From: an uncultured archaeon
GTDB taxonomy: Archaea > Asgardarchaeota > Jordiarchaeia > Jordiarchaeales > Jordiarchaeaceae
Direction: 5' to 3'
Length of the DNA stretch: 24,032 bases
NCBI GenBank assembly: GCA_964510585.1
Contig: CAZECW010000184.1
Coordinates: 1 to 24,032 of the forward strand
Under the pieces are notes generated by a model. It saw only the letters and a program-made list of their open reading frames with translations, had not been told where the DNA came from and made no database searches. A program made the position numbers and the translations under genes. Below are positions 1 through 20,161 of this stretch, piece after piece (the stretch's first letter is position 1; each line of letters begins with the position of its first letter).

Positions 1-138
1 CCCCATGAGGGTGCCAACATAGACGCCGTTCCCTTGAGGGAAGGGCGTGTTAACTGGGTGATGGCACACCCATTGCTTCGAAGGCTCCCGATGAGCCAGA
101 AGCAAGAATCTCCCGACTTTAGTCGCGGAGAGTGTCAA
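1..138 (+). mobile_element. Right part of a non-autonomous IS200/IS605-family element (copy 1, truncated by the window edge)
   Basis: Near-identical to 18221-18359 and to the reverse complement of 11935-12073. It ends in GAAT + subterminal hairpin (cgactttagtcg) + gagtgTCAA; this copy has a 1-nt loss in the hairpin stem. Confidence 0.9.
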
Positions 139-202: not shown

Positions 203-1441
203 TTAGTATGACTGAAGTTTTTTAGGGGCATCAGGATTTTCGGGTCCCATGTGCTTTAGCACGACTAGGTTCTCATTTAAGCTCTCATTAACTATCTCCA
301 CACCATCTTTCGCTGCTTCAACGGTTACAAACAGCTCATCGCTTGTTAGGTCGCCGTACCCTATCATCATTGGTGCTTCAACCCTAAATTTGCCTATTCT
401 ACCGCGCCCCTGTATAACAATAAGGCCATACGCTGCCTTATCAAATATCTTCACACGTTTGCCTGGGTAAACTGTGAGCTCTTTCGCGCTGAACTCATTT
501 GAACCGTATATTACCCATTTCTCCTCATAACCTAGACTTTTGAATTCTTCTGGGTCTATGGCTGGGATGGGCTCAATATAATGGTGCCTTTTAAATTCTG
601 GGTCTATGTTCCCTCCCCAATCTATCATGTTAACAATATAGTCTAAGTCACGATGGTGCTCTTTAGGAACATCTTTCACAAGTAAATCCCAGGGTACGGG
701 TTTATCTTCAAGCATAGACTGGTACATTGCAAAAACATCCGACGCCTTCTGAACCTCATATGTTACGAGTGTTCCCGGGGCGTGAAGAATACCTGCTGGA
801 ACAAGCCATCCTGTTCCAGGCTTAAGCTTATAGGCTTTTGAGAAATACAAGATGCCATTATCGCCCATATTCCATCTCTCAATGCACCTTTTAATGTCCT
901 CTTTTGTTGTACCAGGTTCTAGACCAAAGAAAGTATATGGAAACCTCCCTTCAACGATATTAAGTTGTGGCGGGAAGTAGTAGGCCTCAGGCTTTGGAAG
1001 CCTATTGACCCTACGCGCTTGCTCCTCCATCTGGTGCAGATGCAGCGGTATTGGACATGAATTATCAAAGAATTTGGTCAAAACAGTCCATCCACCATAC
1101 TTTCGCATAACGTCTTTTCCAAGAAACTTTTCCCCTAAGATGTTGATCGCTTCCTTTAAGAGAACCTTATTTATTTTTGAACCTTCTTGGATGACAATAT
1201 AGCTTAGACCCTCGTCCTCAGGCGCCCCTGGGTTATCGGCCTTGGTTGTTGATGCAAGCCACCTCTCGTCAATTCCACCTCTTTCAACTCCTAAAGCATA
1301 AATGCCTTCAGGGGCTAGCTTAAGCCGTCTTCCCGGTGAAAGGAAGCTTCTCGGAACCCACGCCGGGGCTAGTCTGACAATTCCTTCACCGCTCCCAAGC
1401 GCATCTGAAACAATCGCTTCAACATTCAAGTTAACCACCAA
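203..1441 (-). CDS. Cupin-fold protein, type I mannose-6-phosphate isomerase-like
   Basis: 412 aa ORF with cupin metal-binding motifs PLHLHQ...KPEAYYF and VPAGILHAPG...YEVQ. The substrate is not determinable from sequence. Confidence 0.7.
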   Translation of the reverse strand: MVVNLNVEAIVSDALGSGEGIVRLAPAWVPRSFLSPGRRLKLAPEGIYALGVERGGIDERWLASTTKADNPGAPEDEGLSYIVIQEGSKINKVLLKEAINILGEKFLGKDVMRKYGGWTVLTKFFDNSCPIPLHLHQMEEQARRVNRLPKPEAYYFPPQLNIVEGRFPYTFFGLEPGTTKEDIKRCIERWNMGDNGILYFSKAYKLKPGTGWLVPAGILHAPGTLVTYEVQKASDVFAMYQSMLEDKPVPWDLLVKDVPKEHHRDLDYIVNMIDWGGNIDPEFKRHHYIEPIPAIDPEEFKSLGYEEKWVIYGSNEFSAKELTVYPGKRVKIFDKAAYGLIVIQGRGRIGKFRVEAPMMIGYGDLTSDELFVTVEAAKDGVEIVNESLNENLVVLKHMGPENPDAPKKLQSY

Positions 1442-5642: not shown

Positions 5643-7220
5643 ATGGCGAAGAAAAAAAGGAAGACCGAGAAGAAGGAGAAAGGGAAGACCCGCTCATTGG
5701 TAACACTGGGATCTGCTTTCTTCACCTATAATGCTGACGTTCAAGCGTTTCCTGTTTATTATACTTCTATGGGAAGAGACTTGGGTACTTCTCGGGCTGC
5801 TCTGGGATTCATAGATACCACTAGGGGAGCTCTGCAGGCCTTTCTTACGCCCTTCTGGGGATTTCTAGCAGACAGATATTCTCGTAAGAAGGTTCTAACT
5901 ATAGGCTGCTTGGTCTGGGGGATTGCTACCATTCTCCTCTCCCTTGCCGGAAATTACACTACTCTTGCCCTTCTAAGAATAGTTACTGCCCTGGGACTGG
6001 CAACCATGGTTCCAACCGGCTTCTCACTTATTGCGGACATGTATCCCTTGGAAAGCAGAGGAAAATACTATGCGGTTTATGGAGCCATAGGAATAGTGGG
6101 TTTAATGTTAATTATACCAATACTGGGATTTCTGGACGCTCCAAGTCTCACGGGAGGATTAGAGTCAGACCTCTATAGACTAGCAGTATACCAGGCGGTT
6201 TATCCCGACACAATGCTTATTCTGAGGAATATTTTACAGCTGGACGCGCTTGCAAAAAGCACACTTTACAATGGGGTGTGGAGAAACGGCTTCATAGTTA
6301 TGGGAGGCATAAGCATTGGAGTCGCTGGGCTAGTAACACTATTTGTGAAGGAACCCCCGAGGGGAGCTGCAGAAAAAGAACTTAAAGGCGTTGTCACCGA
6401 AGAAACAACAGAAAAGTACAGGATAAAACGCAGCGCATTTAAGGAAATTTTGAGCACCCGCACCATGCTGGTAATCATTGGACAGGGAATAATGGGATAC
6501 TTTCCCTACGTCGTACTCCAATTCTGGTTCATCCACTGGTTTGAAACCGCTAGGCAAATTCCCCCATTTCAAGCCACCATAATTTTCGCAATACTGGTCA
6601 TGGGCTCGGCTCTCGGTAACCTAGTGGGTGGACTCCTCGGTGACCGCATGGAGAGGAGAAGCCCAGCAAAAGGCAGAATTATGGTTGCCCAAATATCAAC
6701 CTCCTCAGGAATACCGTTGGTGCTTCTAATCCTATTTGTCAGAATGGACTTACTTTTATACATTGGTATCGCGTTTTTCACCGCAATTATGATGAGCTGG
6801 AGCGGAGTGGGCGCGGTTGAGCCCATAGTCTCCGCAGTTAATAAGCCAGAAACACGTAGCACCGCCTGGGCTCTAGAGCAAATGTTTGAACAGGGCTTCG
6901 CAGCCTTCGGAGTAGTCATAACGGGTTGGATTGCTGACAACATAAACCTGGGAGTATCAGGAATAGCCATGCAGTGGATAACGCCCTATCTTAGTTATTG
7001 GCTCTATTTCGCCGATATAGGGTTCCTTCTCTATATTATGTGGCTATCCGGCGAGTCACTAACACTCGCCATGGCCCTAACAGTCTCTATTCCCTGGACC
7101 TTTTGCGTACTCATATGGTCACTAGCATACCGAACCTACTACAAAGATAAAAGTAAAATCCAACAGTTTCTGGAACAGAGAAGGAAAGAAATCACAAAAA
7201 GGGATTATCAGAATAGATAA
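5643..7220 (+). CDS. MFS transporter (MFS_1, Spinster-like)
   Basis: 525 aa with multiple hydrophobic helices, MFS motif A GFLADRYSRK, and its repeat GLLGDRMERR in the C-terminal half. Confidence 0.9.
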   Translation: MAKKKRKTEKKEKGKTRSLVTLGSAFFTYNADVQAFPVYYTSMGRDLGTSRAALGFIDTTRGALQAFLTPFWGFLADRYSRKKVLTIGCLVWGIATILLSLAGNYTTLALLRIVTALGLATMVPTGFSLIADMYPLESRGKYYAVYGAIGIVGLMLIIPILGFLDAPSLTGGLESDLYRLAVYQAVYPDTMLILRNILQLDALAKSTLYNGVWRNGFIVMGGISIGVAGLVTLFVKEPPRGAAEKELKGVVTEETTEKYRIKRSAFKEILSTRTMLVIIGQGIMGYFPYVVLQFWFIHWFETARQIPPFQATIIFAILVMGSALGNLVGGLLGDRMERRSPAKGRIMVAQISTSSGIPLVLLILFVRMDLLLYIGIAFFTAIMMSWSGVGAVEPIVSAVNKPETRSTAWALEQMFEQGFAAFGVVITGWIADNINLGVSGIAMQWITPYLSYWLYFADIGFLLYIMWLSGESLTLAMALTVSIPWTFCVLIWSLAYRTYYKDKSKIQQFLEQRRKEITKRDYQNR

Positions 7221-7548
7221 TCCATACCTTCTCTTTTTAAACCATATATTAGGGGTTGATAGTTTTTAGAATTAGGTAAAAATCAAAATTTATAGGACTC
7301 ACACAGTTGGCCGGGTATTTGTGTGTGGGACTTGGTGGATTTAACTTAGTTCTCTATTTTAATCATTTTTGGCATTTTCTTAGAAATAGGAACAAAAAAT
7401 TCTTGTTTTTACCAATTCAGGGTAAAAAAATGGGAATTTAACATTCCGCAGGTGCAATCCGCCCACAAATCAACCTTCAACTGTGTAACTCCTAATTTAT
7501 TAGGTATCTCAACATTTTGAAGAATACCTTAATGCCCATAGAAAATAA

Positions 7549-11934: not shown

Positions 11935-12110
11935 TTGACACTCTCCGCGACTAAAGTCGCGGGGATTCTTGCTTCTGGCTCATCGGGAGCCTTAGGAAGC
12001 AATGGGTGTGCCATCACCCAGTTAACACGCCCTTCCCTCAAGGAAACGGCGTCTATGTTGGCACCCTCATGGGGGCTGCGTCTTGTTTAGCCTCCTTGAG
12101 CCCAAGCCAA
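11935..12110 (-). ncRNA. Putative TnpB omegaRNA (reRNA)-like scaffold within the element
   Basis: Nested stems: acgcc/ggcgt enclosing ttccct/agggaa-type, gggtg/caccc, ttgcttc/gaagcaa enclosing ggctc/gagcc, and the terminal RE hairpin. It lies at an IS605-type right end. The 5' boundary is estimated from the TATA position. Confidence 0.55.
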
Positions 12111-12130
12111 ACCCTTCAGCTACCAACAAC

Positions 12131-12140
12131 TATTTATATA
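12131..12140 (-). promoter_or_regulatory. Putative TATA box inside the element (TATATAAATA), pointing to the right end
   Basis: The motif lies about 195 nt upstream of the element right end. The equivalent site in copy 3 is TACATAAATA (18153-18162). Confidence 0.5.
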
Positions 12141-12302
12141 CCATACTTTCAAATAAACTTTCTGGAGATTCATCCCCACGACTAAAGTCGGGGGCTTTCT
12201 CGCCAAGGTTTTGTAAAGCCATCGGATAATTTTTAAAATGTGAAAAATGGGTTAAAGGTTGAATTCTTGGTTTCTTACCTAGAAAAGGGGAGAGGGTGTG
12301 TT

Positions 12303-16219: not shown

Positions 16220-17974
16220 ATGAGTAAGAAGAGTAAGGCAAAGCCTAGCAAGGCAAAGAAAGCAGCAAAAATTGTGAAGCCCAAGGTAGAGAAGGAGTTA
16301 CCGGACTACATTAAAAATAAGATTTGGCTGAAGAAATACCCTCCAGACTTACCCAAAGAGGTTAAAATACCAACTGACAAGTCGATACCCGAACTGGCTG
16401 AGGAGGCCGCGGACAAGTGGCCAAATTCTGTAAACATAATATTTTATGGCAGAGAATTCACTCGAAAAGAGTTCAAGGATTACATTGACAGACTCACCAC
16501 GGCATTCCAAAAAAATCTGGGAATAAGGAAGGGGGACAAGATAGCCATATACCTGCCAAACTGTCCCCAATTCATCATCGCATACATGGCAGGACTGGCA
16601 GCTGGAGCCACAATGACCTGTATCAGTCCACTATTTGTGCCCCGAGAATTAGCTTACCAGTTAAAGGACAGCGGAGCAGAAACCCTAGTAACCATGGACA
16701 TGTTCTACAACAATGTGGGACAAATAAGAAACGAGGTTAAACTAAAAAACATCATCATCACCAACATATTTGGACAAACACCCAGCGTGCCCGAAAGCGT
16801 GGAACAAGGAATATACCACATGACCAACCTAATTAAAGACACCACTCCCGACATTACAAGGGTAAAAATTAACCCCAAAAAGGACATTGCAGTAATTCAA
16901 TACACTGGAGGCACAACGGGCATGCCTAAAGGCGCACTCCTCACCCACTACAACCTCATAGCCAACGCCCACCAAATCATACCCATAACAGAAGCACTGA
17001 AAAAGAGGTTCGGTGAGGAGAGGGTGAGATCCATAAGCGTACTGCCCTGGTATCACATATATGGACAAACCTGCGAAATAGTTGCGGGAAACCTGATAGA
17101 TTCAACAGCGGTGCTTTTCGCCCAGTTTGACCCGGGAGCCATTCTTGACGCCATTAACAAGTATAAACCCTGGCTCTTCTTAGGAGTTTCAGCTTTGCTC
17201 ATAGCACTTATGAACCACCCCAAAGCCAAAGAAACAGATTTCAGCTGCCTCAAATATGTTAATATGGGAGCCGCTCCAACCCCAGACGAAGTTGCAAGGC
17301 AATGGAAAAAATTATCTGGACACCCGCTGAGCGAAGGCTACGGGCTAACCGAAACCAGCCCTGTAACCCACACTCGACCAGCCCAACTTTTCGGCGAGAA
17401 ACTGGGAAGCATCGGCCCACCGATTCCCAACACGCTGGCAGGCATAGTAGACCCAGATACCAATGAGTTTCTACCCATAGGTGAACTGGGAGAACTGGTG
17501 ATTAGCGGTCCCCAAGTTATGCTTGGTTACTATAACAGGCCTAAGGATACCGAGGCAGTCTTCTTCGAGGCAGGGGGATACAAGTGGCTTAAAACCGGAG
17601 ACCTAGCCCGAATGGACGAAGACGGATACTTCTACATTGTTGACCGCACCAAAGACATAATAAAATATAAGGGTCACAGCGTATATCCCAGGGAAATTGA
17701 GGAGGTTATATTTGAGCACCCCGCAGTGCTGGAATGCGCAGTTATCGGCGTACCGGATCCTGAGGCAGGAGAAAACATAAAAGCATACATATCACTTAAA
17801 CCGGATTACAAAGGCAAGATAACGGAGGAGGAGATGAAGAACTGGATTAAAGAACGAGTCGCCGCCTACAAGTACCCCAGATACGTGGAGTTCATAGACG
17901 TTATCCCCAAGACCATCGTAGGCAAAGTTCTGAGACGAGCACTAAGAGAGAAAGAGGGCGTAAAGTCGGGATAA
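16220..17974 (+). CDS. Long-chain fatty acid-CoA ligase (FadD-like)
   Basis: AMP-binding motif QYTGGTTGMPKG, EGYGLTE, WLKTGDL, IVDRTKDII, and C-terminal PKTIVGKVLRR. Confidence 0.93.
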   Translation: MSKKSKAKPSKAKKAAKIVKPKVEKELPDYIKNKIWLKKYPPDLPKEVKIPTDKSIPELAEEAADKWPNSVNIIFYGREFTRKEFKDYIDRLTTAFQKNLGIRKGDKIAIYLPNCPQFIIAYMAGLAAGATMTCISPLFVPRELAYQLKDSGAETLVTMDMFYNNVGQIRNEVKLKNIIITNIFGQTPSVPESVEQGIYHMTNLIKDTTPDITRVKINPKKDIAVIQYTGGTTGMPKGALLTHYNLIANAHQIIPITEALKKRFGEERVRSISVLPWYHIYGQTCEIVAGNLIDSTAVLFAQFDPGAILDAINKYKPWLFLGVSALLIALMNHPKAKETDFSCLKYVNMGAAPTPDEVARQWKKLSGHPLSEGYGLTETSPVTHTRPAQLFGEKLGSIGPPIPNTLAGIVDPDTNEFLPIGELGELVISGPQVMLGYYNRPKDTEAVFFEAGGYKWLKTGDLARMDEDGYFYIVDRTKDIIKYKGHSVYPREIEEVIFEHPAVLECAVIGVPDPEAGENIKAYISLKPDYKGKITEEEMKNWIKERVAAYKYPRYVEFIDVIPKTIVGKVLRRALREKEGVKSG

Positions 17975-18004: not shown

Positions 18005-18079
18005 AAGTGATTCGATTGAAACTAAGTTCTTATGAAAAGAGGATAGAAAATCCCTCAAGAGGATTTGGAGACATTTTAC

Positions 18080-18359
18080 AAAACCTTGGCGAGAAAGCCC
18101 CCGACTTCAAGTTGTGGGGATGAATCGCCAAAAAGCTTATTTGAAAGTAGGGTACATAAATAGTTGTTGGTAGCTGAAGGATTTGGCTTGGGCTCAAGGA
18201 GGCTAAACAAGACGCAGCCCCCATGAAGGGTGCCAACATAGACGCCGTTCCCTTGAGGGAAGGGCGTGTTAACTGGGTGATGGCACACCCATTGCTTCCT
18301 AAGGCTCCCGATGAGCCAGAAGCAAGAATCCCCGCGACTTTAGTCGCGGAGAGTGTCAA
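18080..18359 (+). mobile_element. Non-autonomous IS200/IS605-family element (copy 3, complete, 280 bp)
   Basis: TTTAC at 18075-18079, AAAG at 18094-18097 before the LE hairpin, GAAT at 18326-18329 before the RE hairpin, and terminal TCAA at 18356-18359. It is near-identical to copy 2. Confidence 0.92.
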
Positions 18360-18460
18360 TGATACCACAACCTGAATTTTTATGTGGGCTGTGTGAAAAA
18401 GGTCAAAATCCTCACATGTTCAATTTATACCTAAGAACAATGCAGTGAGTGGAATTATAC

Positions 18461-20161
18461 ATGTTTAGATTTAAAAAATCAAAACTTCCAGACTACGTTA
18501 AAAAGAAGATATGGTTGAAGAGCTACCCTCCAGATTTCCCTAAGAAGATTAAGATTCCCAAGAAGCCTTTGCCCGAGGTGTTTAGGGAAGCGGCGGAAAA
18601 GTCTGGCGACGTGGTTAGTCTCATTTTTTATGGTAAGGAGTATACACGCAAACAGATTATGGATTGGTCTGATAGGTTGGCTACTGCCCTCCACAATATG
18701 GGTGTAAGAAAGGGTGACGTCGTAGCGATTTATCTACCCAATAGTGTGCAGTTTTTGGTGGCATACTATGGCATTCTAGCAGCGGGAGCTACGGTTACTG
18801 CCATAAGCCCACTTTTTGTGCCGCGTGAGGTTGCCTTCCAGCTAAAGGACAGCGGAGCGGAAACCATAATTACAATGGACCTCTTCTACGAGAACGTGAA
18901 ACAGATTAAAGATGAAACTCCTCTAAAAAATATTATTGTGTGTAACCTTATGGGGGAGAAGCTTCGAGTTGAAAGAGAAGACTTGGATAAAATAATAAAC
19001 TACCATGAACTAATTGAGAGAACCCCTCCCAAACCTCCCAAAATAAAGATAAACCCCACGGAGGACGTGGCGGTGCTGCAGTATACTGGTGGAACAACCG
19101 GCCTACCAAAGGGTGCCATGCTTACCCACTACAATATGTTAGCCAACGCCCTACAAGTTGTCCCCATTACGGAAACATTAAACAAAAGGTTGGGTATTGA
19201 TAGAACTATTGCGATCTCAGTTTTACCTTGGTACCACAGCTATGGCCAAACAGTGGAAATCGTGGCGGGCGCCCTGCTTAATAGTCTTGGCATATGTTTC
19301 TCCCAGTTTGACCCCGCCCCCATTCTTGAGGCAATCCAGAGGTATAAGCCTAACACTTTCATAGCGGTTCCTGCAATTTTGATTTTGTTGCTGAATCATC
19401 CCAAGTCTCGTGAAGTTGACTTTTCCTGTTTAAAGTACTTTAACATGGGTGCTGCCCCCACTCCTGTGGAGCTTGCCAGACAGTGGAAAGAGTTGTCAGG
19501 TAATCCTTTAAGCGAAGGTTATGGGTTGACCGAAGCCAGCCCAGTGACCCATAGTAGATGCGCCCAGCTTTTTGGCGAGATTCTGGGCTCAGTTGGTCCC
19601 CCCATTTTGAACACTCTGGCAGGAATAGTGGATCCAGACACCAACGAGTTTCTTCCTATCGGGCAGCTGGGTGAGCTGGTGGTCAGCGGTCCTCAAGTAA
19701 TGAAGGGCTACTGGAAACGTCCTGAGGAGACAAAGAAGGTGTTCTTTAAGGCTGGTGGCGTAACTTGGTTAAAGACCGGCGACCTTGCTCGTATGGATGA
19801 GAATGGCCATTTCTACATTTTGGATCGTACTAAAGACATAATAAAGTATAAGGGTCACAGCGTCTACCCGCGGGAACTTGAAGAAGTATTGTTTACCCAT
19901 GAAGCAATCATGGATGTTGCAGTGATTGGGGTGCCCGACCCCGATGTGGGTGAACAAATTAAGGCCTTTGTGGTCTTGAAGCCCGAATATAAGGGTAAAG
20001 TTACGGAAGATGACATACTATACTGGTGTAAAGAACACATGGCAGCCTTCAAATATCCCAGATACTTGCAGATCGTGGATTATCTTCCAAAGAGCATGGT
20101 GGGCAAAACTTTAAGAAGAGTGCTCAGAGAACAAGAAGCCCAAAGAATGGCAGAAACTTAA
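18461..20161 (+). CDS. Long-chain fatty acid-CoA ligase (FadD-like), tandem paralogue
   Basis: Same motifs (QYTGGTTGLPKG, EGYGLTE, WLKTGDL) and extensive identity to 16220-17974. The start is the ATG at 18461 or the GTG at 18449. Confidence 0.93.
   Translation: MFRFKKSKLPDYVKKKIWLKSYPPDFPKKIKIPKKPLPEVFREAAEKSGDVVSLIFYGKEYTRKQIMDWSDRLATALHNMGVRKGDVVAIYLPNSVQFLVAYYGILAAGATVTAISPLFVPREVAFQLKDSGAETIITMDLFYENVKQIKDETPLKNIIVCNLMGEKLRVEREDLDKIINYHELIERTPPKPPKIKINPTEDVAVLQYTGGTTGLPKGAMLTHYNMLANALQVVPITETLNKRLGIDRTIAISVLPWYHSYGQTVEIVAGALLNSLGICFSQFDPAPILEAIQRYKPNTFIAVPAILILLLNHPKSREVDFSCLKYFNMGAAPTPVELARQWKELSGNPLSEGYGLTEASPVTHSRCAQLFGEILGSVGPPILNTLAGIVDPDTNEFLPIGQLGELVVSGPQVMKGYWKRPEETKKVFFKAGGVTWLKTGDLARMDENGHFYILDRTKDIIKYKGHSVYPRELEEVLFTHEAIMDVAVIGVPDPDVGEQIKAFVVLKPEYKGKVTEDDILYWCKEHMAAFKYPRYLQIVDYLPKSMVGKTLRRVLREQEAQRMAET

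What the first reader, a model, noticed from the sequence alone, without database searches (positions are those of the whole stretch)
11935..12212. ORF-less IS605-type elements that look like self-contained omegaRNA expression cassettes (3 copies in 24 kb)
Seen: copies at 1-138, 11935-12212 (-) and 18080-18359 (+). The two complete copies have TTAC just outside the left end, AAAG before the LE hairpin, GAAT before the RE hairpin and a terminal TCAA. Established: these are the same four tetranucleotides as the ISHp608 cleavage/guide code (CL TTAC/GL AAAG, CR TCAA/GR GAAT), and IS605 right ends encode the TnpB guide RNA scaffold. Here tnpA and tnpB are absent, yet a TATA box is followed by about 175 nt of nested stems. 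The C/T difference in the ttccct/agggaa stem keeps pairing as G.U. Inference: a mobile, guide-RNA-only element that is moved by TnpA and loads TnpB, or a nuclease-dead derivative, in trans. PATE-like non-autonomous elements are known, but a dispersed family with its own promoter plus intact scaffold in this lineage would merit study.
Basis: partly seen in the sequence, partly recalled or inferred. Interest (0 to 1): 0.8.

Follow-up and report, generated by a model that had tools for sequence, protein, structure and literature searches.

The report
Gene-less IS605 mini-transposon carrying guide RNA
The flagged stretch is one of about 80 copies of a 280-base, protein-free offshoot of an IS200/IS605 transposon in a hot-spring Asgard archaeon that keeps both transposon ends, a likely promoter and the whole folded guide-RNA scaffold of the TnpB nuclease; it is a large, clean example of a kind of element already described.

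Summary
The window has three copies (1-138, cut by the contig start; 11935-12212 minus; 18080-18359 plus), 96% alike. Each complete copy has TTAC outside the left end, AAAG and GAAT before the two hairpins, and a terminal TCAA.

- **Copy number:** the genome, a Jordarchaeia-type Asgard MAG, holds 32 full copies plus 89 contig ends that stop inside the element, so about 80 copies.
- **Mobility:** two congeneric genomes have the flanks of copy C abutted exactly at TTTTAC|GATACC. It is therefore a real insertion 3' of TTAC with no duplication.
- **Parent:** resident tnpA-tnpB elements share the left end (90-96%). The element's last ~145 nt are the tnpB 3' tail plus right end (72-77%).
- **RNA scaffold:** across 37 archaeal tnpB tails and gene-less elements, 92% of cells pair. 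29 of 37 pairs show compensatory changes, including a pseudoknot next to the guide.
- **Distribution:** in five sister genomes, 25 of 30 scaffold matches are gene-less, each with a left end and a TATA-like box.

Transcription and TnpB loading are not shown. Stand-alone omegaRNAs and omegaRNA-bearing PATEs are already published, and this scan reached the same reading on other pieces of this genome. It is a new member of a known kind.

The parts
18076..18079 (+). TTAC target/left cleavage tetranucleotide (CL; predicted TnpB TAM) just outside copy C
   Evidence: All 29 full copies have T-TAC here. It is retained at the empty sites in G001 and G004.
18080..18359 (+). Copy C, complete 280-bp gene-less element (left end, spacer with TATA-like box, omegaRNA scaffold, right end)
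   Evidence: It is precisely absent from the orthologous site in two congeneric genomes.
18094..18119 (+). Left guide tetranucleotide AAAG (18094-18097) plus left subterminal hairpin with a bulged T on the 3' arm (18098-18119). The foot lies 18 nt from TTAC.
   Evidence: DNA fold. 90-96% identical to the left end beside resident tnpA genes. IS608 geometry from PMC3201880.
18153..18162 (+). TATA-like box (TACATAAATA here; consensus TATATAAATA), homologous to the box 29 nt upstream of the tnpA ATG in the parent; candidate archaeal promoter
   Evidence: Alignment with parents. A TATA-like box at the matching place in independent gene-less families. It is the most variable part among copies. Promoter activity is not tested.
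18211..18359 (+). omegaRNA scaffold module, derived from the tnpB 3' tail (from the RuvC-III RD codons) plus the right end. Helices: H2 18242-18267, H3 18274-18291, variable hairpin 18294-18323, right-end hairpin 18332-18349 with a UUUA loop. Pseudoknot halves 18281-18285 and 18354-18358.
   Evidence: Homology. Model R1. Covariation. Comparison with ISDra2 omegaRNA from PMC10097598.
18326..18329 (+). Right guide tetranucleotide GAAT, directly 5' of the right-end hairpin
   Evidence: Relatives that end in TCAG have GAAC here.
18356..18359 (+). TCAA right cleavage site, the last four bases of the element
   Evidence: The empty-site junction falls exactly after it.
18360..18379 (+). Predicted guide segment of the copy-C omegaRNA (flanking DNA). 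The matching target would be the empty donor joint, TTAC followed by this sequence.
   Evidence: Inference from the TnpB/omegaRNA mechanism (PMC10055086). The empty-site sequence is seen in G001 and G004.
11935..12212 (-). Copy B, complete 278-bp element on the minus strand (the flagged interval). TTAC lies at 12216-12213 just outside; TCAA at 11938-11935.
   Evidence: R1 scores 184.9 bits on 11935-12087.
1..138 (+). Copy A, right half only (scaffold from H1 onward plus right end), cut by the contig start. It carries the commoner right-hairpin variant with a bulged C.
   Evidence: R1 matches 1-131.

Best explanation
This is a non-autonomous IS200/IS605 element (a PATE/MITE) of the IS608 type. 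It consists of three parts:
- a left end (TTAC target, AAAG guide, bulged hairpin) that also carries the parent's tnpA TATA box;
- a short spacer;
- the last ~145 nt of the parent (tnpB 3' tail plus right end), which is the complete TnpB omegaRNA scaffold.

Shown here: it is gene-less, it has about 80 copies, it inserts 3' of TTAC without duplication, it shares its ends with resident tnpA-tnpB elements, and it keeps every covarying helix of the scaffold.

Inferred:
1. The resident Y1 TnpA moves it in trans as single-stranded DNA.
2. The left-end promoter, or read-through, produces an RNA of about 175 nt plus a guide copied from the right flank.
3. TnpB made by the few autonomous copies loads that RNA and cuts the scarless empty donor joint (TTAC plus flank).
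4. Recombination with a sister chromosome then restores the element. This retention would explain why the scaffold is kept in gene-less derivatives.
For: **Mobility and boundaries.** G001:C571 and G004:C13 have the two flanks of copy C directly abutted at TTTTAC|(T/A)GATACC. All copies have TTAC on the left and TCAA at the end.

**Parentage.**
- The left end is 90-96% identical to the sequence beside three Y1 tnpA genes (PF01797, E about 1e-35).
- Positions ~140-283 align with the tnpB tail (RDVAGALNIG...NW.MAHPL) plus right end at 72-77%.

**RNA structure.**
- Model R1 finds 37 relatives. On that alignment 92% of cells pair against 35-48% when partners are slid by 1-3 columns. 29 of 37 pairs have double changes, and 0 of 500 shuffles reach this.
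- Between the element and IS-A, the outer H2 stem differs by two compensatory pairs (ACGCC/GGCGT against GTGCC/GGCAC). The variable hairpin is replaced by a different hairpin.
- The pseudoknot UGGCA/UGUCA is 97% paired, with G.U, A-U and G-C at the middle pair and no mismatch. A UUUA loop sits at -21..-18. ISDra2 has a pseudoknot at -5..-3 and UUUA at -20..-17 (PMC10097598).

**Retention of the scaffold.**
- Several distinct gene-less families all keep the left end plus the whole scaffold. They are MITE-1 and MITE-2 in this genome, and others in G001 and G003-G005. In G003, G004 and G005 the 5' boundary falls just upstream of H2.
- IS608 TnpA needs only about 45 nt of right end (PMC3201880).
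- Within the family the scaffold is the least variable region: 1.7% against 2.8% for the left end and 4.5% for the spacer.

**Promoter.** The TATA-like box aligns with the parent's box 29 nt upstream of the tnpA ATG. Sister families have TTTAAATA-type boxes about 23 nt before the scaffold start.

**Literature.** Stand-alone omegaRNAs act in trans (PMC10691335). PATEs often encode omegaRNAs (PMC10055086).
Against: - No proof of transcription. The only RNA-library evidence is one 217-nt contig at depth 3.4. It comes from a relative's copy in a mat metatranscriptome and could be DNA carry-over.
- The TATA region is the most variable part of the element.
- Private, post-insertion mutations are no rarer in stems than in loops (0.25% against 0.31%, p = 0.59). 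Selection on individual copies is therefore not demonstrated.
- The scaffold is only 72-77% identical to that of the resident IS-A, and its variable hairpin is of a different type, closer to IS-B on C81. Compatibility with a resident TnpB is unproven.
- The IS-A tnpB genes are broken across contig ends, so their intactness in this genome is unknown.
- The whole TnpB clade has Gly in place of the RuvC-II Glu. The literature predicts such enzymes are active but has not tested them (PMC10691335).
- The covariation alignment was fitted to the model, and part of the signal comes from autonomous elements.
Confidence: 0.62

Rival explanations
1. It is a passive deletion derivative. The element is a PATE moved by TnpA, but the omegaRNA-like segment is inherited baggage of a recent burst. 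It is not expressed, or not used by any TnpB, and will decay.
For: - Copies are young (92-97% alike), so conservation within the family needs no selection.
- Private mutations are not depleted in stems.
- The TATA region varies.
- No solid RNA evidence.
Against: - Several independent gene-less families in the genus all keep the full ~120-190-nt scaffold. Three of them share the same 5' boundary, although TnpA needs only about 45 nt of right end (PMC3201880).
- The element differs from its nearest parent by compensatory, not random, changes in H2, and by a hairpin-for-hairpin replacement.
- A diverged old copy (C49:13534-13680, 84% identical) carries a U-A to C-G double change in H3.
Confidence: 0.25
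2. The long structured right part is needed in cis as single-stranded DNA for TnpA-mediated excision or integration in this archaeal lineage. It would be an extended right end, not an RNA.
For: - The helices would also form in the transposed top-strand DNA.
- The left and right hairpins are clearly TnpA signals.
Against: - G.U-type pairs (G.T in DNA) are common in the covarying helices, and the pseudoknot middle pair is G.U in 21 sequences. This fits RNA better than DNA.
- The same helices lie in the region shown to be omegaRNA in ISDra2 (PMC10097598).
- IS608 needs only hairpin, guide and cleavage site (PMC3201880).
Confidence: 0.05
3. It is a domesticated guide library. The cassettes feed a nuclease-impaired TnpB (TldR-like) that binds rather than cuts, regulating genes or competing elements.
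For: - The resident TnpB clade has Gly at the RuvC-II Glu. The QZM (G004) copy reads GNL and IS-B reads GRL where most of the clade has GDL or GEL.
- Gene-less cassettes outnumber tnpB about 20 to 1.
Against: - The Gly variant is clade-wide, these tnpB genes sit beside tnpA in IS ends, and the literature predicts an alternative Glu (PMC10691335).
- Guides are simply the flanks of random intergenic insertions, with no orientation bias to genes (15 same, 12 opposite).
- A search for TTAC plus guide elsewhere found one exact site and two weak ones among 71 guides.
Confidence: 0.06

Closest known systems
PATEs / PATE-like non-autonomous IS200/IS605 elements (Haloquadratum walsbyi; Geobacillus stearothermophilus, Meers et al. 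2023, PMC10055086)
   Same: - Gene-less, bounded by the same left-end and right-end hairpins, guide and cleavage motifs as autonomous elements in the same genome.
- Presumed to be moved in trans by TnpA.
[quoted passage not shown]
   Different: - The host is an Asgard archaeon.
- Copy number is very high (about 80 in 3.8 Mb, roughly 20 per autonomous copy).
- The left end brings an archaeal TATA-type promoter next to the scaffold.
- No experiment here.
Stand-alone omegaRNAs of OMEGA systems (Altae-Tran et al. 2021, as summarised in PMC10691335)
   Same: - Mobilised guide-RNA loci without effector or transposase, in genomes that also hold effector-bearing loci.
- Shown there to work in trans with compatible effectors.
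   Different: Function in trans was demonstrated for those systems. Here it is inferred from homology, covariation and retention only.
ISHp608 (IS608) of Helicobacter pylori
   Same: - Identical code: TTAC target/left cleavage site, AAAG left guide, TCAA right cleavage site (PMC3201880); GAAT right guide from my own recollection of Barabas et al. 2008.
- Near-identical geometry: TTAC 18 nt (IS608: 19 nt) from the left hairpin foot; TCAA ends 10 nt from the right hairpin foot.
- Bulged base in the hairpins.
- Insertion without duplication.
   Different: - IS608 is autonomous (tnpA plus tnpB) and bacterial.
- The sequences are otherwise unrelated.
ISDra2 TnpB omegaRNA (PMC10097598)
   Same: - Scaffold made of the tnpB 3' end plus right end.
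- Several stems.
- Last stem with a UUUA tetraloop about 20 nt from the guide.
- Pseudoknot using the nucleotides just 5' of the guide.
- Guide taken from flanking DNA.
   Different: - The pseudoknot partner lies in the H3 loop at about -79..-75, not -105..-103.
- The TAM would be TTAC, not TTGAT.
- There is no sequence similarity.
- Here the RNA gene stands without tnpB.

Membership tests
IS200/IS605 non-autonomous element (PATE/MITE) | Subterminal imperfect hairpins at both ends, not terminal inverted repeats | tested here: met
   DNA folds of both ends. The left and right hairpins are alike, with a bulged base on the 3' arm in the left end and in the commoner right-end variant.
IS200/IS605 non-autonomous element (PATE/MITE) | Insertion 3' of a specific tetranucleotide, with no target duplication and scarless empty sites | tested here: met
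   TTAC flanks all 29 full copies. The orthologous sites in G001 and G004 read TTTTAC followed directly by the right flank.
IS200/IS605 non-autonomous element (PATE/MITE) | Guide tetranucleotides 5' of each hairpin foot that match the cleavage sites (IS608 code) | tested here: met
   AAAG and GAAT lie directly 5' of the hairpins, with TTAC and TCAA at the cleavage sites. Relatives ending in TCAG carry GAAC. Reference: PMC3201880.
IS200/IS605 non-autonomous element (PATE/MITE) | No transposase or other conserved ORF | tested here: met
   No frame is open in all copies.
IS200/IS605 non-autonomous element (PATE/MITE) | An autonomous partner with the same ends and a Y1 TnpA in the same genome | tested here: met
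   Three tnpA genes (PF01797) lie next to a left end 89-97% identical to the element's.
IS200/IS605 non-autonomous element (PATE/MITE) | Excision and integration catalysed by TnpA in trans | not testable with these tools
   Needs an excision assay. The presence/absence polymorphism shows only that it has moved.
TnpB omegaRNA (stand-alone form) | Derived from the tnpB 3' end plus right end, ending at the transposon boundary so that the guide is flank DNA | tested here: met
   Alignments with IS-A, IS-B and 16 other archaeal tnpB tails.
TnpB omegaRNA (stand-alone form) | Conserved secondary structure supported by covariation | tested here: met
   92% of cells paired, 29 of 37 pairs with double changes, 0 of 500 shuffles, slid controls 35-48%. 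Caveat: the alignment was fitted to the model.
TnpB omegaRNA (stand-alone form) | Pseudoknot involving the nucleotides just 5' of the guide | tested here: met
   UGGCA (H3 loop) with UGUCA (-6..-2): 97% paired. Middle pair G.U 21, A-U 6, G-C 2. One double change. Two of the five pairs show no compatible variation (one unpaired cell each), so support is moderate.
TnpB omegaRNA (stand-alone form) | Transcribed, with a defined 5' end and a guide-bearing 3' end | tested here: inconclusive
   One metatranscriptome contig (depth 3.4) covers 18205-18359 plus 12 nt of another flank. Contigs cannot show strand, ends or level.
TnpB omegaRNA (stand-alone form) | Bound and used by a TnpB encoded elsewhere | not testable with these tools
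   Needs RIP-seq and a TAM or cleavage assay.
TldR-type nuclease-dead TnpB system | Loss of RuvC catalytic residues in the partner protein | tested here: inconclusive
   The RuvC-I and RuvC-III Asp residues are present. The RuvC-II Glu is Gly across the whole clade, which PMC10691335 interprets as a rearranged, probably active site.

The most novel reading that the evidence does not exclude
In this Asgard genus, gene-less cassettes (left-end promoter plus omegaRNA) have become the main form of the transposon: 25 of 30 scaffold loci in sister genomes and about 80 copies here. They could act as a dispersed, self-expressing guide library for a few RuvC-II-rearranged TnpB proteins. That would be a natural step between transposon homing and a multi-guide, CRISPR-like or regulatory system, with roles beyond self-retention.
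Probability: 0.1. Interest if true: 0.7.

Novelty: new member of a known kind. Interest (0 to 1): 0.38.

Why it matters
It offers a natural, compact archaeal example in which the three modules of IS605 biology are physically separated at a ratio near 20:1. The modules are the TnpA substrate ends, a promoter, and the TnpB guide RNA.

This is useful material for three tests:
- whether omegaRNA-bearing mini-elements are retained by TnpB in trans;
- what the minimal scaffold is (about 120 nt in the sister families);
- whether a RuvC-II-rearranged archaeal TnpB is active with a TTAC TAM.

It also explains a fifth of the contig breaks in this assembly. It does not reveal a new principle.

Tried and rejected
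- **Rfam.** A scan of the whole window at E <= 1 gave only a chance hit to PK-repBA at 16796-16855 and no family for the element.
- **Expression.** The one RNA run (X10) gave a single low-depth contig from a relative's copy. I do not count it as evidence of transcription.
- **Empty sites in reads.** DNA-run contigs showed no joint across copy C. Their summed depths are not a copy number.
- **Empty sites within the genome.** Joining the flanks of each full copy found no spanning hit.
- **Copy B.** It has no clean empty site in sister genomes because the intergenic region has diverged.
- **Assembly walking.** Looking for contig-end overlaps to rebuild a full IS-A in this genome found none. The middle of its tnpB is unassembled.
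- **Closing helix.** A closing helix GACGC/GUGUC (P0) was modelled first. It pairs less well (87%) than the pseudoknot that uses the same 3' nucleotides (97%), so I prefer the pseudoknot.
- **Long-range pairing.** In copy C alone, GGAUUUGGCUU pairs with the 3' side of the variable hairpin in the MFE. It is not kept in the family consensus fold.
- **Orientation.** No bias relative to neighbouring genes: 15 same, 12 opposite.
- **Minus-strand ORF.** The 112-aa ORF at 18030-18368 is not conserved.
- **Stems versus loops.** The test on private mutations had too few events to decide.
- **Not run.** Structure prediction and complex prediction were not used, because no protein-protein claim is made.

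Full report
**1. What is in the window.**

- Copy C is 18080-18359 (+) and copy B is 11935-12212 (-).
- Copy A (1-138) is the right half of a third copy, cut by the contig start.
- Both complete copies are preceded by TTAC and end in TCAA.
- AAAG sits directly 5' of the left hairpin and GAAT directly 5' of the right hairpin.
- The C/T difference in the TTCCC/GGGAA stem keeps a G.U pair.

Both complete copies are intergenic. Copy C lies between two tandem AMP-binding (acyl-CoA-synthetase-like) paralogues. Copy B lies between a 5'-nucleotidase/metallophosphoesterase gene and a BKACE gene.

**2. Family size and host.**

The window is contig C184 of a 3.78-Mb, 217-contig genome. blastn finds 32 full copies, 50 left halves and 39 right halves that stop at contig ends.
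- That makes about 80 copies.
- 89 of 434 contig ends lie in the element, so it is a main cause of the fragmented assembly.
- All full copies are intergenic, with no orientation bias to neighbouring genes.
- No reading frame is shared by the copies.

Record titles of related loci place a sister genome (G004) in 'Candidatus Jordarchaeia' (Asgard archaea), and the DNA occurs in hot-spring metagenomes.

**3. It is mobile, and the boundaries are exact.**

In two congeneric genomes the flanks of copy C are directly abutted. G001:C571 reads ...TTTTAC|TGATACCACAACC and G004:C13 reads ...TTTTAC|AGATACCACAACC. The window has the 280-bp element between TTAC and TGATACC.

This is insertion 3' of TTAC without duplication, as in IS608. 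In IS608, TTAC lies 19 nt from the left hairpin foot and TCAA 10 nt beyond the right one (PMC3201880). Here the distances are 18 and 10 nt.

**4. The parent.**

The genome has Y1 tnpA genes on C7, C169 and C162. Each is preceded by a left end 89-97% identical to positions 1-64 of the element, after which the sequences diverge. tnpB 3' ends on C8, C54, C152 and C45 are followed by a right end 76-78% identical to positions 185-283.

A complete copy (left end, a tnpA-sized gap with no intact ORF, tnpB, right end) is in G004 (L051:1450-3178, minus). The element's positions ~140-283 are recognisably the tnpB tail from the RuvC-III 'RD' codons onward, now without a frame.

A second autonomous lineage (IS-B, C81) has a right end whose variable hairpin base resembles the element's more closely. 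The element is therefore not a simple deletion of the resident IS-A.

**5. The retained tail is an omegaRNA scaffold.**

Tails of 17 archaeal tnpB genes (Jordarchaeia, Borr-, Wukong-, Heimdall-, Hodarchaeota, Archaeoglobaceae, Methanolliviera) share one layout:
- hairpin H2;
- TAAC, then hairpin H3 with a GUGGCA loop;
- a variable hairpin;
- AGAAYC;
- the right-end hairpin with a UUUA-type loop;
- ...GUCA(A/G).

I built covariance model R1 on the element plus IS-A and aligned 37 matches.
- 92% of cells pair, against 35-48% when partners are slid by 1-3 columns.
- 29 of 37 pairs have compensatory double changes.
- 0 of 500 shuffles reach this.

Following a lead from earlier notes of this scan, I tested a pseudoknot between the H3 loop (UGGCA) and the last nucleotides before the guide (UGUCA). 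It is 97% paired, with G.U, A-U or G-C at the middle pair and one double change. That is better than my alternative closing helix at 87%.

This matches the published ISDra2 omegaRNA: a 116-nt scaffold with four stems, a pseudoknot using -5..-3, and a UUUA loop at -20..-17 (PMC10097598). Here UUUA is at -21..-18.

The element keeps every helix. Against IS-A its outer H2 stem differs by two compensatory pairs, and its variable hairpin is a different hairpin at the same place.

**6. Retention looks selected at the level of families, not of copies.**

- R1 finds 85 places in this genome. They include a second gene-less family of about 345 bp (C107, C58, C32).
- In the five sister genomes, 25 of 30 matches have no tnpB (longest entering frame 75 aa or less). 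Nearly all have their own TTAC, left end and TATA-like box.
- In the G003, G004 and G005 families the retained tail starts at the same point just 5' of H2, about 120 nt from the end.
- Outside the genus, 24 of 101 sampled genomes of the phylum have matches. About half of the best loci are gene-less, but none approaches this genome's count.
- IS608 TnpA needs only about 45 nt of right end (PMC3201880), so repeated retention of the full scaffold argues for function.

Within the family the scaffold is the least variable part (1.7%; left end 2.8%; spacer 4.5%). Shared variants are fewer in paired positions. Private mutations show no stem/loop difference, so selection on individual copies is not shown.

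**7. Promoter.**

The TATA-like box of the element aligns with the parent's box, which lies 29 nt upstream of the tnpA ATG. That spacing would give a leaderless mRNA. Sister families carry TTTAAATA-type boxes about 23 nt before the scaffold start.

This supports the 'self-contained cassette' idea by inference only. The box is also the most variable part of the element.

**8. Expression.**

One search for sequencing runs and one read-laying were allowed. DNA runs from hot springs hold the locus. The single RNA run gave one 217-nt contig (depth 3.4) from a related copy covering 18205-18359 plus another flank. This does not establish transcription.

**9. The partner nuclease.**

- Resident TnpB fragments carry OrfB_IS605 and the zinc-ribbon TNB domain.
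- The RuvC-I and RuvC-III aspartates are present.
- The RuvC-II glutamate is glycine throughout this archaeal clade. The literature describes this state as a rearranged, probably active site that has not been tested (PMC10691335).
- The IS-A genes of this genome are split over contig ends.

**10. What is known already.**

[quoted passage not shown] Altae-Tran et al. state that stand-alone, mobilised omegaRNAs exist and function in trans (PMC10691335).

Earlier follow-ups of this scan reached the same conclusion on other contigs of this genome. The present element is therefore a new, unusually abundant archaeal member of a known kind.

**11. Verdict.**

- IS200/IS605 PATE: near certain.
- Carries a complete omegaRNA scaffold: strongly supported.
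- Expressed from its own promoter and used by TnpB in trans for retention: likely (about 0.6) but untested.

Noticed in passing
G000:C81:5075-6787 (-) (locus L034:214-1926): A single 571-aa open frame holds Y1_Tnp, OrfB_IS605 and the TNB zinc ribbon. tnpA and tnpB of a second IS605 lineage (IS-B) are therefore in one frame without a stop. Its right end has a ~65-nt longer variable hairpin.
   Followed up: partly
G000:C107:~6905-7233 (+), C58:~28240-28557 (+), C32:13043-~13390 (-), C21:205-398 (+, left end missing): A second gene-less family of about 345 bp. It has its own TTAC, left end and TTTAAAGG box, and a scaffold with a long variable hairpin.
   Followed up: partly
G000:C12:8956-8975 and G000:C154:2119-2321: The predicted guide of the copy at C12:8677-8955 has an exact TTAC-flanked match on C154. 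The right flanks are 98% alike over 198 bp, starting exactly at the junction, but the left flanks are unrelated. Possible causes are recombination between copies, transduction of flank DNA, or strain mixture. Unexplained.
   Followed up: partly
L105 (G004:C84), element ending at G004:C84:8305: A sister-genome mini-element has another short element, with its own inverted ends, inserted in the loop of its left hairpin.
   Followed up: no
tnpB relatives L062-L081, G000:C81: The whole archaeal TnpB clade reads G-(D/E/N/R)-(L/V) where canonical TnpB has the RuvC-II catalytic Glu (E-D-L). This is the rearranged-site state described in PMC10691335.
   Followed up: partly
window 16220-17974 and 18449-20161: The two genes flanking copy C are tandem AMP-binding paralogues. 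The sister genome G005 has further paralogues in tandem at the same locus.
   Followed up: no
right flanks of 71 copies genome-wide: The first base after TCAA is A in 40 of 71 copies (T 16, C 14, G 1). This suggests a target preference that extends beyond TTAC.
   Followed up: no
window 203-1441 (-): A 412-aa ORF next to truncated copy A has no Pfam match at E <= 1e-5.
   Followed up: no
right-end hairpin, all copies (e.g. window 18330-18349 against window 110-128): The right hairpin has two linked variants. One is CTCC-CGAC...GTCG[C]GGAG with a bulged C (22 of 29 full copies, and copy A). The other is CCCCGCGAC...GTCGCGG without the bulge (7 of 29, including copies B and C). The variants appear in mosaic combinations with other polymorphisms, which suggests exchange between copies.
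   Followed up: partly
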